From a virus, in the UHGV virus genome UHGV-0299546: a DNA stretch of 35,363 nt. One strand, given 5' to 3'. Positions 1 through 4,208 of the stretch are shown piece after piece; positions within the stretch are counted from its first letter, which is position 1; every line of letters begins with the position of its first letter. Below the pieces are notes generated by a model. The model searched no databases. It worked only from the letters and a program-made list of their open reading frames with translations, and had not been told where the DNA came from. A program made the position numbers and the translations under genes.

Positions 1-173
1 CTGCACCTCCTTAAGTTATACAAAGTATAACTCACGGTGCTACAGGCAACGTTTTACCCCTGCGCATTTGTGAACGCCAGCAGAGTTTTTTATGCGTTAA
101 TAGATATGGAAAGCGGCTCGGAGAGAAAAGCAAAAGGTGAGGGAATTACAAAACAGAATGCGAGTCGTCTCGC

Positions 174-211
174 AAAAAACAACGCCACCCGAAGGTGACA
201 TGAAGGTGGCC
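174..211 (-). terminator. Hairpin (GCCACC...GGTGGC) followed by a T-run on the minus strand, downstream of int; overlaps the candidate att core
   Basis: Inverted repeat 184-189/205-210; A-run 174-179 on plus strand = U-tract on the minus-strand transcript. Confidence 0.4.
183..197. repeat. Left copy of 15-bp direct repeat CGCCACCCGAAGGTG (right copy 35245-35259); candidate attL core
   Basis: Exact 15-mer found at both window ends, about 100 bp from the int stop codon. Confidence 0.35.
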
Positions 212-290
212 GAACATACCGGCCTCCCTTTGATATATCAATTAGTTACATTAATATACATAGTCTTAAGTCGGCTTATTTAGTCCTATT

Positions 291-1286
291 TTATGGGCAA
301 TATCTGGACAACTCAGCCACAGGATTAAAACGCACAGCATCCTGCAAATAATCCGGTGCAAAATGGGCATAGGTCATCGTCTGCTGAATAGTGCTATGTC
401 CAAGTATTCTCTGCAAAGTGATGATATTCCCACCATTAATCATGAAGTGAGTGGCAAAGGTATGCCGTAAAACATGTATCGACTGCCCTTCAGGAAGATC
501 GGGCCTCACCTTTCTGATAGCCGTTCTGACAGCAGAATAACTTGGATAAATTAAACGACCAGTGGCCTTTGTTTTAATCATGCACTCCAGTTCTGACGAT
601 ATAGGTATAACGCGACGCTTCCCATTTTTGGTTTCCATAAAAATGACTTTGCCGCTAATAACATGCTCCCCCTTGATATTTGCAACTTCACTCCATCTTC
701 CACCTGTTGCCAGACACAACAAGACGGCTTTTAATTCATCACCAGATAACAACTCCAGTAATCGTGGAATATCTTCATGATACAAATAAGCCATTTCAGG
801 CTGTTTGATATTAAGTTTTTTCACATCATGAAACGGATTAGCCCCAGAATATTCCTCTGCGTCAATTAGTTTTGTGAAAAAACCACTCATCATTGCGCAA
901 TAACGATTAACCGTGGATTGTTTTATTCCGCGGTTAAGCAACAATAACCGATAATTAATTATGTTTTTACGAGTAAGTTGATCACTGCGTGTAACATTAA
1001 TACTTTCAAGATCACTAATGACCGCAGCAATACGCACTCGCTCCATCGCACCGTAAGGATGATTTTTACCGTGATACAACCACCAACAATCCAGCAGCTC
1101 CCTCAGCGAGCGCCGTTCTGTTGGCTTATCAACCCAGCCTTTGTCGTGGTAATGCTGCAATACATGACGCTCATACAAAACAGCCTCACCACGAGTATCA
1201 AATCGCCGCCTGAATCTCTTTCCTTCTGATCCAGCTGGCCGCACGTCCACACAAAATTTGCCATTAGCGAGCTTCTTAATCGACAT
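291..1286 (-). CDS. int: Phage integrase, tyrosine recombinase (P2 Int-like)
   Basis: Translation resembles P2 Int along its length (C-terminal HxLRHTFATHFMINGG...TLQRILGH...YAHFAP block). Start moved to ATG at 1286 (MSIKKL...), which has a GGAGG RBS 10 nt upstream; the ORF-track start at 1322 has none. Confidence 0.93.
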   Translation of the reverse strand: MSIKKLANGKFCVDVRPAGSEGKRFRRRFDTRGEAVLYERHVLQHYHDKGWVDKPTERRSLRELLDCWWLYHGKNHPYGAMERVRIAAVISDLESINVTRSDQLTRKNIINYRLLLLNRGIKQSTVNRYCAMMSGFFTKLIDAEEYSGANPFHDVKKLNIKQPEMAYLYHEDIPRLLELLSGDELKAVLLCLATGGRWSEVANIKGEHVISGKVIFMETKNGKRRVIPISSELECMIKTKATGRLIYPSYSAVRTAIRKVRPDLPEGQSIHVLRHTFATHFMINGGNIITLQRILGHSTIQQTMTYAHFAPDYLQDAVRFNPVAELSRYCP

Positions 1287-1352
1287 AAGGAAGCCCTCCA
1301 ATGAAAACATCATTTTGATCACAGCTCTGGGAAATAAATGCCTGGTGAACCG

Positions 1353-1646
1353 TTAACCAGTTTTCTTGCCGGAGCGGGATAATTCCGCTTCGTTTTGCCC
1401 AATGTGTGCGAGAGCCGGTACAACCTGCCCGGCCTTAGGTTCAACTTCATCAAACAAAAACCAGTCGCGATATTTAGAAAATCTTGGGTGCTTGAAAAGC
1501 TTGATAGTGATCTCAAGGCCAGGAAGGTTACGACCATACTCATAACTGGTCAGAGCAGAATAAGAAATCCCAATCATATCAGCGAATTCCCGCTGAGTGA
1601 GATCTTCAGATTTACGCATGACGCGAATTTTTTGAGGAATGTCCAT
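1353..1646 (-). CDS. C: Immunity repressor C (P2 C-like)
   Basis: 98 aa from ATG at 1646 (MDIPQKIRVMRKSE...); resembles P2 C along its length, including the C-terminal PALAHIGQNE...SGKKTG; lies between int and cox as in P2. Confidence 0.85.
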   Translation of the reverse strand: MDIPQKIRVMRKSEDLTQREFADMIGISYSALTSYEYGRNLPGLEITIKLFKHPRFSKYRDWFLFDEVEPKAGQVVPALAHIGQNEAELSRSGKKTG

Positions 1647-1688
1647 TTGACAAACTCCTACATATGTGTAGATTAACACCACATATGA
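1647..1688 (+). promoter_or_regulatory. Candidate early promoter Pe with candidate C-repressor operator repeats
   Basis: Consensus -35 TTGACA at 1647-1652, 16-bp spacer, -10-like TAGATT at 1669-1674; direct repeat ACATATG at 1660-1666 and 1681-1687 (21 bp apart) flanking the -10. Confidence 0.4.
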
Positions 1689-1760
1689 ACAGCAAACAAA
1701 TGTTCTAAGTGGTTCCAACTAGTGCCAGTTAGAAAAAGCACCAATAGCGGAGGATATCAG

Positions 1761-2186
1761 ATGCAAGAAAGCACTCAAAACGCGCCTGAGTCACTTTGCG
1801 GAACACGATGCGATCACCTGTCAGAAATGCCAGAAGGTGAGCATCAAAAAACAGGACGCAAAGCACGTGAACGTGAAGAAATTCGACTTTCAGAAAATCC
1901 CTCGCATCTCCTGTCAAAAGAAGGATTTGCGATGTATATCGGAAAGACCGTTGATGCCATCGTAAGCATGGCAAAAGCAGGAAAGCTACCTGCGGTGTAT
2001 ATGGCGGACCCTCTCAAGCCAGGCGGAAACGCTGAACTCTACATCAACAGAAAAGCGTGGGATGAAGCATGCGATCGCCTCATCGAAAACGCACCTCAGG
2101 AATGGCACGACTGGGAAAACCGTCTGTTTTTGTTTAAGCCAACAAGTGGCAGACGAAACAGAAACATCAGCGGTAAAGCAGCATAA
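1761..2186 (+). CDS. cox: Cox-like excisionase / early transcriptional regulator
   Basis: Segment FAMYIGKTVDAIVSMAKAGKLPAVYMADP...ELYINRKAW resembles P2 Cox; GGAGGA RBS at 1749-1754 before ATG 1761. Start is uncertain (in-frame ATGs also at 1722, 1827, 1932). Confidence 0.6.
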   Translation: MQESTQNAPESLCGTRCDHLSEMPEGEHQKTGRKAREREEIRLSENPSHLLSKEGFAMYIGKTVDAIVSMAKAGKLPAVYMADPLKPGGNAELYINRKAWDEACDRLIENAPQEWHDWENRLFLFKPTSGRRNRNISGKAA

Positions 2187-2223
2187 CTCAAACCATAATT
2201 CATTTTAGACGGAGTATTTTGAT

Positions 2224-2574
2224 ATGAAGGAGCGGCGTAATTCTCCACAGCAGCGCTTCCGCAACGGTGCAGAACGCCATGCTAACCGTTTCGCTACCAG
2301 TGCATCACGCAGCAACTCTCGCTACAGCCTGAGCGAAACACACGCAACGCCGGATGGCTACCCCGTAAAACAAATCGGCGAGCACACCTGGCTGATTGAG
2401 AAAGCTGGAATCGTGGTCCACAAATGCCCACGCAATCCGTTTACCGGAAACCGCATTTTTGCATTGAGCTGCGGCGACAATCAGCTCGGACAGGATTTCA
2501 CATTGTACGAAGCACTACGCACGGTTGATCGTCTGCTTCGCGGGCAAGGTTTTATTAAACAGGCTGACTTATAA
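2224..2574 (+). CDS. Hypothetical early-region protein
   Basis: 116-aa ORF with GGAG RBS 9 nt upstream; position corresponds to the P2 early operon. Confidence 0.55.
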   Translation: MKERRNSPQQRFRNGAERHANRFATSASRSNSRYSLSETHATPDGYPVKQIGEHTWLIEKAGIVVHKCPRNPFTGNRIFALSCGDNQLGQDFTLYEALRTVDRLLRGQGFIKQADL

Positions 2575-2584
2575 CAGGTGATTT

Positions 2585-2872
2585 ATGACCAAAGACTATG
2601 CACAAGGTGTATTTATCCGCTTTATTGATTTTCGCGGTGAACTGTTATTACGCGCATCCGCTATTGATGGAGTGACTCCGGCGGGTAAAAACGGAGCCGC
2701 CGAAGCCACTTACGTTTATCTGAACGGCACACGACTGCTTGTGGAACTTCCGTACCAGAGCGTACGAGAAATCATTAACGAAGCTGAAAAGGCACGTCAG
2801 GTTAATGGCGATAAACCCTATATCGAAATTATTTGTATGGATTCAGAAGCAGAAATCCAGAAGGCAGATTAA
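2585..2872 (+). CDS. Hypothetical early-region protein
   Basis: 95-aa ORF, AGGTGA RBS, tightly packed with neighbours. Confidence 0.55.
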   Translation: MTKDYAQGVFIRFIDFRGELLLRASAIDGVTPAGKNGAAEATYVYLNGTRLLVELPYQSVREIINEAEKARQVNGDKPYIEIICMDSEAEIQKAD

Positions 2873-2882
2873 AGGGTGTGCG

Positions 2883-3125
2883 ATGGACAAAGAATATAAA
2901 GCTCTCGTCAATAAAGCACTTGAGCGTTTTCATTTTCGCTTAAACACATCAGGGCTTCACGCCGAACACGCAGCCCATGATTCATTAGCAAGGGCAATCA
3001 GAAGCCTTTATGACGTGGCCTTTTACGCTGACGATTTGGATGCAATTAACGAACTTTCCGAACTCGTCTGCGCTGCAGAATGCGGGGATCGCATTGAACC
3101 ATATAAACTGGGGAATATCGCATGA
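2883..3125 (+). CDS. Hypothetical early-region protein
   Basis: 80 aa from ATG 2883 (MDKEYKALVNK...), in frame with ORF-track entry 2739..3125. Confidence 0.5.
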   Translation: MDKEYKALVNKALERFHFRLNTSGLHAEHAAHDSLARAIRSLYDVAFYADDLDAINELSELVCAAECGDRIEPYKLGNIA

Positions 3126-3235
3126 GTATATTTATGTCATGGATTGTTCTGATTATTTCGGTGGCCTGCGCAATCGGGATTATGCGAATTATTCATTCAG
3201 TGAAAAAGATTGAGCGTTTTTTCTCTGACGAATAA
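3122..3235 (+). CDS. Possible 37-aa hydrophobic small membrane protein
   Basis: Hand-translated MSIFMSWIVLIISVACAIGIMRIIHSVKKIERFFSDE; ATG overlaps the upstream stop (ATGA); below the ORF-track size cutoff. Confidence 0.3.
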   Translation: MSIFMSWIVLIISVACAIGIMRIIHSVKKIERFFSDE

Positions 3236-3328
3236 CAGCACAAATAAAACACCAGATTAAATAAGAAAACGTGAAAACCATCCGAATTAGCGGAGGCATT
3301 CACACACGTAAATAATGGAGATACAAAA

Positions 3329-3739
3329 ATGAACGCAAAAGAAAAAGGCATTGTAACTGCGCTAAAAAATATATCGAAGACCGCAAACAAAGCCATTCAG
3401 GATGCAACAAATGCAGGAATGATTGGGCCTGCCACCACAGCCATGATGATAGCAAGAGTAACCGCCGAAGCAGCCGAAATTATCGAAAAACAGGATGCTG
3501 AACTAACGGTTCTCAGAACACAACCAGTCACCGGACTGGATTTGTCTAACACCGGACGCCTTATTTACACAATTGGCTCGGAGCCACAGCAATACACCAT
3601 TATCGCCGGATTACAGGATAAATACCTGATCACTCCTCACCCCATAAGGGAATCAGAAATTCTGACAAATCTCCGCCTGATAGAGCGCTCTCAAGTCGCA
3701 TTCATTGATGGCGCGCAACGTGCCGTATTTAACGCATAG
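3329..3739 (+). CDS. Hypothetical early-region protein
   Basis: 136-aa ORF with GGAG RBS. Confidence 0.55.
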   Translation: MNAKEKGIVTALKNISKTANKAIQDATNAGMIGPATTAMMIARVTAEAAEIIEKQDAELTVLRTQPVTGLDLSNTGRLIYTIGSEPQQYTIIAGLQDKYLITPHPIRESEILTNLRLIERSQVAFIDGAQRAVFNA

Positions 3740-3762
3740 GGCTATTGGGCAAAGAGAGCGTA

Positions 3763-3966
3763 ATGGCAATTAAGCATTTTCCCGTCGTTCGCTTTACCTC
3801 CAGAGGACGCGAATACGAGGTCGACGAACGCCTGATTACCACTATCGACAAACACCGTTCAGAAAAGGATGCACATCACATCTATCTCACTGACGGCACT
3901 TACTTCTGCGCCACGAATGTGGTGCGGGTGAACCTTATCCGACAGGCACAGGAGTCACGCAGATGA
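3763..3966 (+). CDS. Hypothetical early-region protein
   Basis: ATG 3763 (MAIKHF...) preceded by AGAGAG; alternative start at 3745. Confidence 0.45.
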   Translation: MAIKHFPVVRFTSRGREYEVDERLITTIDKHRSEKDAHHIYLTDGTYFCATNVVRVNLIRQAQESRR

Positions 3967-4208
3967 CCATTCTGGACTACATCGCTGCCAATCCGGGTTG
4001 TAGCGGTGGAGAAATCGCCGCAGCACTGAATACCCCAACCACAACCATTAATGCGGAGTTACGCCGACTCTGGCGCGACGGCTTAGTCATCAGAGAAGAA
4101 CGCAAAACAGGCGGTCGGTTCTCTTACCAGGTAAACCCGATGCCGTTCGGGTGTGGCAACCCACTTACTCACATGTTTAACCAGCTACTGAAGGAAGCCA
4201 GAGCATGA
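3963..4208 (+). CDS. Small putative winged-helix DNA-binding protein
   Basis: 81 aa; translationally coupled (ATGA overlaps at both ends); the winged-helix call is judged by eye from the translation. Confidence 0.5.
   Translation: MTILDYIAANPGCSGGEIAAALNTPTTTINAELRRLWRDGLVIREERKTGGRFSYQVNPMPFGCGNPLTHMFNQLLKEARA

What the first reader, a model, noticed from the sequence alone, without database searches (positions are those of the whole stretch)
1647..1760. Immunity switch: consensus -35 abutting the repressor start codon, with 21-bp-spaced ACATATG repeats
The rightward promoter has a perfect TTGACA that begins one base after the C start codon (1646), and two ACATATG copies bracket its -10. 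This matches the known P2 design in which C binds direct repeats flanking the Pe -10. The specific operator sequence may define this phage's immunity group.
Basis: partly seen in the sequence, partly recalled or inferred. Interest (0 to 1): 0.4.

Follow-up and report, generated by a model that had tools for sequence, protein, structure and literature searches.

The report
P2-type phage immunity switch operator
This is the lysis/lysogeny control region of a P2-family (P88-like) prophage: the early promoter starts right beside the repressor gene, and two conserved ACATATG elements bracket its -10 box as the likely repressor binding sites, making it an ordinary but uncharacterised immunity type.

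Summary
CAT (C start codon, 1644-1646, minus strand) is followed directly by TTGACA (1647-1652), a 16-nt spacer and TAGATT (1669-1674). ACATATG lies at 1660-1666 and 1681-1687, 21 bp apart, on either side of the -10.

A 7-mer repeat alone is weak evidence: 17.5% of shuffles have one somewhere, and 2.8% have one bracketing the -10. The comparative evidence is strong.
- In 17 distinct variants with the same repressor HTH (E. coli, Salmonella, Yersinia), the -35, the -10 and both ACATATG cores are nearly invariant, while neighbouring bases vary.
- The paired motif occurs only upstream of this repressor type.
- Against its 96.6%-identical relative P88, the window differs in one ~270-bp cassette, made of the HTH half of C plus this operator.

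The repressor is a clear P2 C homologue (PDB 2XCJ, E=2.6e-25), and the layout matches the annotated P2 Pe/O1/O2.

One caveat: the core ACATATGT is self-complementary, so the pair also reads as the inverted repeat CATATGTG-N11-CACATATG. Sequence cannot settle the orientation, though direct is slightly favoured.

Verdict: a new immunity specificity of a known switch type.

The parts
1353..1646 (-). C immunity repressor gene (97 aa plus stop). The N-terminal HTH half sets specificity. The C-terminal half is shared with heteroimmune relatives.
   Evidence: ORF list. Pfam HTH_3 at 2e-9. P2 C structures 2xcj/2l49 at E=2.6e-25. An identical protein, P0001, occurs in E. coli. Alignment A2.
1655..1659 (-). 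Shine-Dalgarno AGGAG for C, 8 nt before the ATG. It lies inside the Pe spacer.
   Evidence: Read from the sequence. Relatives carry CTCC or CCTC, both of which keep GGAG/GAGG.
1647..1652 (+). Pe -35 hexamer TTGACA, immediately after the C start codon.
   Evidence: Promoter scan. Invariant in 17/17 type-A variants. Also present in types B and E and in P2.
1660..1667 (.). Left operator element ACATATG(T), a self-complementary 8-mer in the Pe spacer.
   Evidence: Mean per-column diversity is 0.017, against 0.27-0.43 in neighbouring non-promoter columns.
1669..1674 (+). Pe -10 hexamer TAGATT.
   Evidence: Promoter scan. Invariant in 17/17 variants.
1681..1687 (.). Right operator element ACATATG, covering the predicted Pe start (about 1681-1682). 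It is 21 bp from the left element.
   Evidence: Diversity 0.034. Natural one-base variants occur in L057 (ACATGTG) and L062 (ACATATA).
1703..1734 (.). Three Cox-box-like elements matching TTCYAANTRG: 1703-1712 (+), 1713-1722 (+) and 1725-1734 (-). They are the inferred Cox operator between Pe and Pc.
   Evidence: These are the only three matches in the window, though the consensus was derived from them. They are shared with heteroimmune P88, which has the same Cox. All three change together to TTCCAA in Yersinia.
1751..1778 (-). Best candidate for the leftward repressor promoter Pc: TTGAGT (1778-1773), 16 nt, then the extended -10 TGaTATCCT (1759-1751). Tentative.
   Evidence: Relaxed scan, 8/12 plus TG. 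TGnTATCCT is conserved in distant relatives. It overlaps the cox ribosome-binding site, so the conservation is ambiguous.
1761..2186 (+). cox-like gene (141 aa), the first gene of the early Pe operon. A ~40-aa N-terminal extension precedes the Phage_Cox domain.
   Evidence: Pfam Phage_Cox at 5.4e-28, aa 40-120. The P88 annotation matches.
1464..1732 (.). Immunity cassette: the only strongly diverged block against phage P88. It comprises the HTH half of C, Pe and the operator.
   Evidence: Identity per 40-nt block: 95-100% outside the cassette, 35-72% inside, with the minimum of 35% at 1660-1692.

Best explanation
This is the P2-type lysis/lysogeny switch of a P88-like (Xuanwuvirus, Peduoviridae) prophage.

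**Early promoter.** Pe (TTGACA-16-TAGATT, predicted start about 1681) drives cox and the early genes rightward.

**Repression.** The C repressor is made from the leftward operon (C-int). It most likely binds the two ACATATG(T) elements, which lie 21 bp apart (two helical turns, so on the same face of the helix). By analogy with P2, one dimer probably binds each element, cooperatively. The bound dimers would sandwich the -10 and cover the start site, so RNA polymerase is excluded from Pe. This maintains lysogeny and gives immunity to phages carrying the same operator.

**Specificity.** It resides in the N-terminal HTH half of C. That half and the operator are exchanged together as a ~270-bp cassette.

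**The other arm.** Cox probably acts through three 10-bp boxes at 1703-1734 to shut off the leftward promoter Pc. The position of Pc is uncertain.

**Shown versus inferred.** Shown: homology, gene order, promoter and repeat positions, their conservation, and their co-variation with HTH type. Inferred: actual binding, stoichiometry, orientation, the transcription start sites, and the Pc and Cox sites.
For: - **Homology and context.** The genes are C (HTH_3), Phage_Cox and an integrase, in P2 order. C matches P2 C (2xcj) at E=2.6e-25 and 44% identity. The window is 96.6% identical to phage P88 over 80% of its first 25 kb.
- **Same layout as the experimentally defined P2 switch.** In P2 the -35 overlaps the C start codon and the 8-bp O1 and O2 flank the -10 at 22 bp (PMC1904268; PMC2995052).
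- **Phylogenetic footprint.** In 26 loci (17 distinct sequences), mean per-column diversity is 0 at the -35, 0.017 at left ACATATG, 0 at the -10 and 0.034 at right ACATATG. It is 0.275 between the -10 and the right site, 0.429 just downstream, and 0.125 in the adjacent C codons. The 21-bp spacing survives a 1-nt deletion upstream in Salmonella variants.
- **Specificity.** ACATATG-N14-ACATATG occurs in 19 loci, all directly upstream of an operator-proximal type-A C gene. It is absent from the other 48 loci and occurs nowhere else in the window.
- **Co-variation with the HTH.** Types B (P88) and E, and P2, have other repeats at the same place. The chimera L027 (type-A N-terminus, type-E C-terminus) carries the type-A operator.
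- **Cassette.** Divergence from P88 is confined to about 1464-1732 and is deepest at the operator.
Against: - No binding, footprint or transcript data exist for this immunity type.
- The 7-mer repeat on its own is near chance level.
- Conservation of the left element is confounded by its position in the Pe spacer and the C mRNA leader. Conservation of the right element is confounded by the Pe start region.
- Natural variants with one mismatch in the right element exist (L057, L062), and one variant has a mismatch in the left (L009).
- Pc could not be placed confidently. No minus-strand promoter passes the standard scan.
- The nearest heteroimmune relative (P88 type) has a 16-bp near-palindrome rather than clear direct repeats. 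The family is therefore not uniform in operator design.
Confidence: 0.8

Rival explanations
1. The operator is an inverted repeat, CATATGTG (1661-1668)-N11-CACATATG (1680-1687). C would recognise it symmetrically, for example as two dimers head to head, unlike the direct-repeat recognition described for P2 C. The switch would be the same but the binding geometry different.
For: The 8-bp arms are perfectly complementary in the window, which happens in 4% of shuffles. On the reverse strand the paired pattern matches with only one mismatch. P2 C is a symmetric dimer that resembles binders of palindromes (PMC2995052). Related types show palindromic elements at Pe: type B has AGTAAGTTAACTCACT and type E has AATTTACA-N5-TGTAAATT.
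Against: The extra inverted pair (1668/1680) is lost in most Salmonella variants, where 1668 is A but 1680 stays C. In Salmonella L011/L023 the direct repeat extends to 17 nt at 94%, against 16 nt at 75% for the inverted reading. Flank matches summed over all variants favour direct, 84 to 59. Everything beyond the self-complementary core is at chance level for both readings.
Confidence: 0.15
2. The two elements matter mainly as RNA. In the leftward C mRNA leader they pair into an 8-bp hairpin just upstream of the C Shine-Dalgarno sequence, tuning C translation or stability rather than acting as the repressor's DNA site (or in addition to doing so).
For: The minus-strand RNA of 1640-1745 folds with this hairpin next to the SD: -28.7 kcal/mol, z = -2.3, with 5 of 200 shuffles folding at least as well.
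Against: There are no compensatory changes. The natural substitutions (L009, L057 and position 1668) break pairs without a matching change. The start of the Pc transcript is unknown. This reading does not explain why the elements are swapped together with the HTH domain.
Confidence: 0.04
3. The repeat is a chance feature of an AT-rich promoter region, and the real C site lies elsewhere in the spacer.
For: 17.5% of shuffled spacers contain a direct repeat of >=7 nt. Another 7-mer repeat (AAAGCAC) lies nearby.
Against: Both cores and their spacing are conserved across three genera while flanking bases vary. The pair is exclusively associated with the type-A HTH. The rest of the spacer (1703-1760) is shared with heteroimmune P88, so it cannot determine immunity.
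Confidence: 0.03

Closest known systems
Bacteriophage P2 C / Pe-Pc / Cox transcriptional switch (operators O1 and O2)
   Same: The repressor is a homologous ~100-aa HTH protein (E=2.6e-25 to PDB 2XCJ). The gene order int-C / cox is the same. A consensus TTGACA -35 sits at the C start codon. Two short repeats about two helical turns apart flank the Pe -10. The promoters are face to face, with a Cox-family protein on the lytic side.
   Different: The operator sequence is ACATATG(T) rather than GTTTAGAT. The spacing is 21 bp rather than 22. The -35 abuts the start codon rather than overlapping it. The half-site is self-complementary, whereas P2's is explicitly non-palindromic. Cox carries a ~40-aa N-terminal extension (141 aa against 91). 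The intergenic spacer is about the same length (114 bp here, the same as P2's 114 bp between the C start and the cox ATG), but Pc is not at an obviously equivalent position.
Escherichia phage P88 (Xuanwuvirus P88), the nearest sequenced phage
   Same: It is 96.6% identical over most of the genome. cox, its leader from about 1733 onward and the C-terminal half of C are the same.
   Different: It is heteroimmune by sequence. The N-terminal 56 aa of C are only 53.7% identical. Its Pe region carries AGTAAGTTAACTCACT and a partial second copy 25 bp away instead of the ACATATG pair.
P2 Hy dis and W-phi C repressors (other characterised P2-type immunity classes)
   Same: They are small C proteins that bind two repeated half-sites at Pe. 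Sequence, length and spacing differ between classes (PMC1904268).
   Different: Their half-sites are 8 bp at 26 bp around the -35 (P2 Hy dis) and 10 bp at 34 bp around the -10 (W-phi). Here the half-sites are 7-8 bp at 21 bp around the -10.
Coliphage 186 CI / pR-pL / Apl switch
   Same: The lytic and lysogenic promoters are face to face. Direct-repeat sites for an excisionase-type regulator, spaced one helical turn apart, lie between them (PMC7498355 abstract). If Pc is the 1751-1778 candidate, the arrangement of the boxes between the two starts resembles 186.
   Different: 186 CI is about twice the size, cannot be aligned with C proteins, and binds inverted repeats (PMC1904268 and PMC3448106). 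The repressor here is of the C type.

Membership tests
P2-type C immunity repressor family | A small (~100 aa) protein with an N-terminal HTH and a conserved C-terminal part, homologous to P2 C. | tested here: met
   97 aa. HTH_3 at 2e-9. P2 C (2l49/2xcj) at E=2.6e-25 across residues 3-97. 44% identity, with the family's conserved GQxxPAL segment present as GQVVPALA against P2's GQIAPALA (PMC3448106).
P2-type C immunity repressor family | [quoted passage not shown] | tested here: met
   int 291-1286(-), C 1353-1646(-), cox-like 1761-2186(+). The order matches the P2 and P88 annotations.
P2-type Pe operator | Two repeated half-sites 2-3 helical turns apart that flank the -10 or -35 of Pe. | tested here: met
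   ACATATG at 1660 and 1681, 21 bp apart, flanking TAGATT. Conserved in 17 variants.
P2-type Pe operator | The half-sites are non-palindromic direct repeats. | tested here: inconclusive
   The core ACATATGT is self-complementary. The window reads as a 7-bp direct or an 8-bp inverted repeat. Salmonella variants favour direct, with 17 nt at 94%, and flank matches favour direct 84 to 59.
P2-type Pe operator | C binds the half-sites and represses Pe, and both sites are needed in vivo. | not testable with these tools
   This needs EMSA or footprinting and reporter assays. Only conservation and co-variation with the HTH type are available.
Distinct immunity class within P2-type switches | C proteins are >=95% identical within a class, and the C-cox spacer cannot be aligned between classes (PMC3448106). 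| tested here: met
   The HTH half is 53.7% identical to P88, the best hit among sequenced phages. The operator block is 35% identical to P88. C differs from P2 (44% identity) and from class IX of UTI89. I could not compare it with classes II-VIII and X, whose sequences are not held.
Phage_Cox (P2 Cox / RDF) on the lytic arm | A Cox-family protein is encoded first in the Pe operon, with repeated boxes near Pc. | tested here: inconclusive
   The Pfam Phage_Cox match is met at 5.4e-28. The boxes TTCYAANTRG x3 are inferred only from repetition and co-variation. They do not match the P2 box, which I recall as TTAAA(G/C)NCA.

The most novel reading that the evidence does not exclude
In this immunity class the C repressor would recognise a self-complementary 8-bp element, so each site can be read in either orientation. 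The operator would then work as a true inverted repeat (CATATGTG-N11-CACATATG). That would make it a natural intermediate between the palindrome-binding HTH repressors and the unusual direct-repeat recognition of P2 C, and a handle on how a symmetric C dimer reads asymmetric DNA.
Probability: 0.15. Interest if true: 0.5.

Novelty: new member of a known kind. Interest (0 to 1): 0.3.

Why it matters
It gives a concrete, testable operator (ACATATG-N14-ACATATG) and a ~270-bp specificity cassette for an uncharacterised immunity type. That type is widespread in E. coli, Shigella, E. albertii, Salmonella and Yersinia prophages. This helps predict superinfection immunity among P2-like prophages and supports engineering of orthogonal repressor/operator pairs. 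Because the half-site is palindromic, this type is also a convenient system for asking how symmetric P2-type C dimers read repeated half-sites. It does not change the known picture of the P2 switch.

Tried and rejected
- **Repeat significance from this sequence alone.** Shuffles show it is not decisive, so I turned to comparative data.
- **GTDB representative genomes.** The scan returned only distant heteroimmune relatives (40-57% identity) and no type-A locus. It was useful only for the family-wide view and the Pc motif.
- **Matching to named immunity classes.** Karlsson 2006 is not held. Nilsson 2011 has no supplement held as text. The UTI89 PhiECO5 prophage (class IX) turned out to carry a different, 113-aa C. 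Whether the Yersinia enterocolitica 8081 prophage PhiYE98 is this type could not be checked.
- **Locating Pc.** The standard scan finds nothing on the minus strand. The relaxed scan gives two weak candidates. CTGGCA-17-GAACAT (1728-1700) is not conserved in relatives and was set aside. TTGAGT-16-TGaTATCCT is conserved but overlaps the cox RBS.
- **An Rfam-described RNA.** Nothing relevant was found in 1-4000. The only match is a chance-level snoRNA hit at E=0.24.
- **The RNA hairpin reading.** It has modest stability and no covariation.
- **A larger palindrome around each core.** I looked for one, as in type B, and found none by inspection.

Full report
**What is in the sequence**

The window starts with the left end of a P2-family prophage.
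- An integrase gene lies at 291-1286 (minus strand).
- A 97-aa HTH_3 protein is encoded at 1353-1646 (minus strand).
- A 141-aa Phage_Cox-family protein is encoded at 1761-2186 (plus strand).
- A DUF4761 gene follows.

The minus-strand start codon of the HTH gene is CAT at 1644-1646. It is followed directly by TTGACA (1647-1652), a 16-nt spacer and TAGATT (1669-1674). This promoter scores 10/12 and is the only promoter-like site found on either strand between 1300 and 2300.

ACATATG occurs at 1660-1666 and 1681-1687, 21 bp apart. The copies lie 2 nt before and 6 nt after the -10.

The repressor's Shine-Dalgarno sequence (AGGAG, the complement of 1655-1659) lies inside the Pe spacer.

**Is it more than chance?**

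Taken alone, only marginally.
- The heptamer is not enriched in the window: 4 occurrences against 3.66 expected.
- 17.5% of dinucleotide shuffles of the 114-nt spacer contain some direct repeat of >=7 nt.
- 2.8% contain one that brackets the -10.
- A second 7-mer repeat (AAAGCAC) lies nearby.

The paired pattern ACATATG-N14-ACATATG is, however, unique in the 35-kb window even with three mismatches allowed.

ACATATGT is self-complementary. The same bases therefore form a perfect 8-bp inverted repeat, CATATGTG (1661-1668) / CACATATG (1680-1687), separated by 11 nt. On the reverse strand the paired pattern matches with one mismatch.

**Identity of the element**

The window is 96.6% identical to Escherichia phage P88 (Xuanwuvirus, Peduoviridae) over 80% of its first 25 kb.

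The HTH protein matches the solved P2 C repressor (2xcj/2l49) at E=2.6e-25 over its whole length and is 44% identical to it.

The P2 GenBank record annotates the same design:
- the Pe -35 TTGACA overlaps the C start codon;
- O1 (GTTTAGAT) is followed by the -10 TAGTAT and then O2 (GTTTAGAT), with the two sites 22 bp apart;
- Pc lies further right, facing Pe.

The literature confirms that P2-type C proteins bind two repeated half-sites whose sequence, length, spacing and position differ between immunity classes. The values are 8 bp at 22 bp in P2, 8 bp at 26 bp in P2 Hy dis and 10 bp at 34 bp in W-phi (PMC1904268). Two dimers are thought to bind cooperatively (PMC2995052).

**Comparative test of the operator**

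A protein search gave a graded series of C homologues. The C-terminal half is shared. The N-terminal HTH half falls into discrete types. The window's type, which I call type A, occurs in E. coli, E. albertii, Shigella, Salmonella and Yersinia enterocolitica.

I collected 26 loci with an operator-proximal type-A gene, giving 17 distinct spacer sequences. The alignment shows a clear footprint in mean per-column diversity:

| Segment | Mean per-column diversity |
|---|---|
| -35 (1647-1652) | 0.000 |
| Left ACATATG (1660-1666) | 0.017 |
| -10 (1669-1674) | 0.000 |
| Between -10 and right site (1675-1680) | 0.275 |
| Right ACATATG (1681-1687) | 0.034 |
| Downstream (1688-1702) | 0.429 |
| Adjacent C codons (1617-1646) | 0.125 |

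The 21-bp spacing is kept in every variant, including Salmonella variants that have lost one base just upstream of the left element.

A few natural one-base variants exist: ACACATG on the left in L009, ACATGTG on the right in L057, and ACATATA on the right in L062. P2 Hy dis O2 likewise carries a natural mismatch.

**Co-variation with the repressor**

The exact pair occurs in 19 fetched loci, always immediately upstream of an operator-proximal type-A C gene. It is absent from the other 48 loci.

Heteroimmune relatives keep TTGACA at the same place but carry other elements around the -10.
- P88 (type B) has AGTAAGTTAACTCACT plus a partial second copy 25 bp away.
- A Salmonella type (type E) has AATTTACA-N5-TGTAAATT.
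- A Scandinavium prophage has a 9-bp direct repeat at 21 bp.

A natural chimera, L027, has a type-A N-terminus and a type-E C-terminus and carries the type-A operator. The operator therefore follows the HTH half.

The identity profile against P88 is 95-100% on both sides. It falls to 35-72% only between about 1464 and 1732, with the minimum (35%) exactly over 1660-1692. That ~270-bp block, made of the HTH half of C plus Pe and its operator, is the immunity cassette.

No phage genome in the INPHARED collection carries this HTH type. The best match is P88 at 53.7% over the N-terminal 56 aa.

**Direct or inverted?**

| Comparison | Direct reading | Inverted reading |
|---|---|---|
| Window, exact repeat | 7 nt | 8 nt |
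| Salmonella L011/L023 | 17 nt at 94% (CCACATATG[T/A]ATAGATT twice, a 21-bp tandem unit) | 16 nt at 75% |
| Flank matches summed over 17 variants | 84 | 59 |

The innermost inverted pair (1668/1680) is lost in most Salmonella variants.

Only the self-complementary core is truly conserved, so sequence cannot fix the orientation. The direct reading is slightly favoured and agrees with family precedent. The P88 type's 16-bp near-palindrome shows that the family is not uniform.

**The other arm of the switch**

Between Pe and cox lie three 10-bp elements matching TTCYAANTRG: 1703-1712 (+), 1713-1722 (+) and 1725-1734 (-). These are the only such matches in the window, although the consensus was derived from them.

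They are shared with heteroimmune P88, whose Cox is the same. All three change together to TTCCAA in Yersinia. I infer that they are Cox boxes.

Pc is not secure. The standard scan finds no minus-strand promoter. A relaxed scan gives TTGAGT-16-TGaTATCCT (1778 to 1751), whose extended -10 is conserved as TGnTATCCT even in distant relatives. It overlaps the cox ribosome-binding site, so that conservation is ambiguous. A second candidate, CTGGCA-17-GAACAT (1728-1700), is not conserved.

**Mechanism proposed**

C dimers bind the two ACATATG(T) elements on one face of the helix. They sandwich the -10 and cover the start of Pe, which blocks early transcription and gives class-specific immunity. Cox made from Pe counteracts this by repressing Pc through the boxes.

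Binding, stoichiometry, orientation and the transcription start sites are inferred, not shown.

**Rivals**
- A truly inverted operator, with the same switch and a different binding geometry: about 0.15.
- An RNA hairpin in the C leader: -28.7 kcal/mol, z = -2.3, no compensatory changes. About 0.04.
- Chance: about 0.03.

**Novelty**

This is a new immunity specificity within the well-known P2-type switch. I could not check whether it already carries one of the published class numbers. Karlsson 2006 is not held. Nilsson 2011 has no supplement held as text. Class IX, from UTI89, is a different protein.

Interest is modest. The palindromic half-site is the one feature a specialist might want to exploit.

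Noticed in passing
L024:1192-1797, L025:1190-1797, L027:1501-2102 (Salmonella prophages): Some Salmonella P2-like prophages carry two C-type repressor genes in tandem before int. The operator-proximal gene matches the local operator. The distal gene has a different HTH type: type-A-like in L024/L025 and type-B-like in L027. No cognate ACATATG pair lies within 1.5 kb. The extra repressor might extend immunity to a second phage type.
   Followed up: partly
L027:1501-1791: A natural chimeric repressor combines a type-A HTH half with the C-terminal half of the type-E protein (EENLRAGQEVPSLVKVWEQ...). It is paired with the type-A operator. This shows that the two halves recombine independently.
   Followed up: partly
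L012:1473-1488 (P88-type Pe region; same sequence in L001): The P88 immunity type has a 16-bp near-palindrome, AGTAAGTTAACTCACT, filling the Pe spacer, instead of clear direct repeats. Its operator may be a classical inverted repeat.
   Followed up: no
window 1761-1880: The Cox homologue has a ~40-aa N-terminal extension ahead of the Phage_Cox domain. It is 141 aa here and 135-169 aa in relatives, against 91 aa in P2. The extension is variable apart from its first ~7 codons (MQExxQN), which overlap the candidate Pc -35.
   Followed up: partly
window 1749-1763 and loci L028-L048: The string GGAGGATAGCA(A/G)ATG at the cox start is conserved well beyond what a ribosome-binding site needs, across distant Enterobacterales prophages. 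On the opposite strand it reads as an extended -10, TGCTATCCT.
   Followed up: partly
window 1666-1673: GTGTAGAT, which overlaps the Pe -10, matches the P2 operator half-site GTTTAGAT at 7 of 8 positions. It is a single copy, so it is probably a vestige or a coincidence.
   Followed up: no
window 1671-1679 (minus strand): Read leftward, the Pe -10 region gives TGtTAATCT, an extended -10-like motif 31 nt upstream of the C start. The TG is present only in some variants, including the window's. Its significance is unknown.
   Followed up: no
window 2652-2770 and 2930-3010: These are further short blocks of low identity to P88 (52-80%) within otherwise 90-100% identical early genes. They are additional mosaic joints.
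   Followed up: no
L069:1570-1720 (E. coli UTI89 prophage PhiECO5): This prophage has a different, 113-aa C-type repressor. TTGACAT overlaps its start codon, and its Pe region has TTCACCA repeats and a TTCACCACATGGTGAA palindrome.
   Followed up: no
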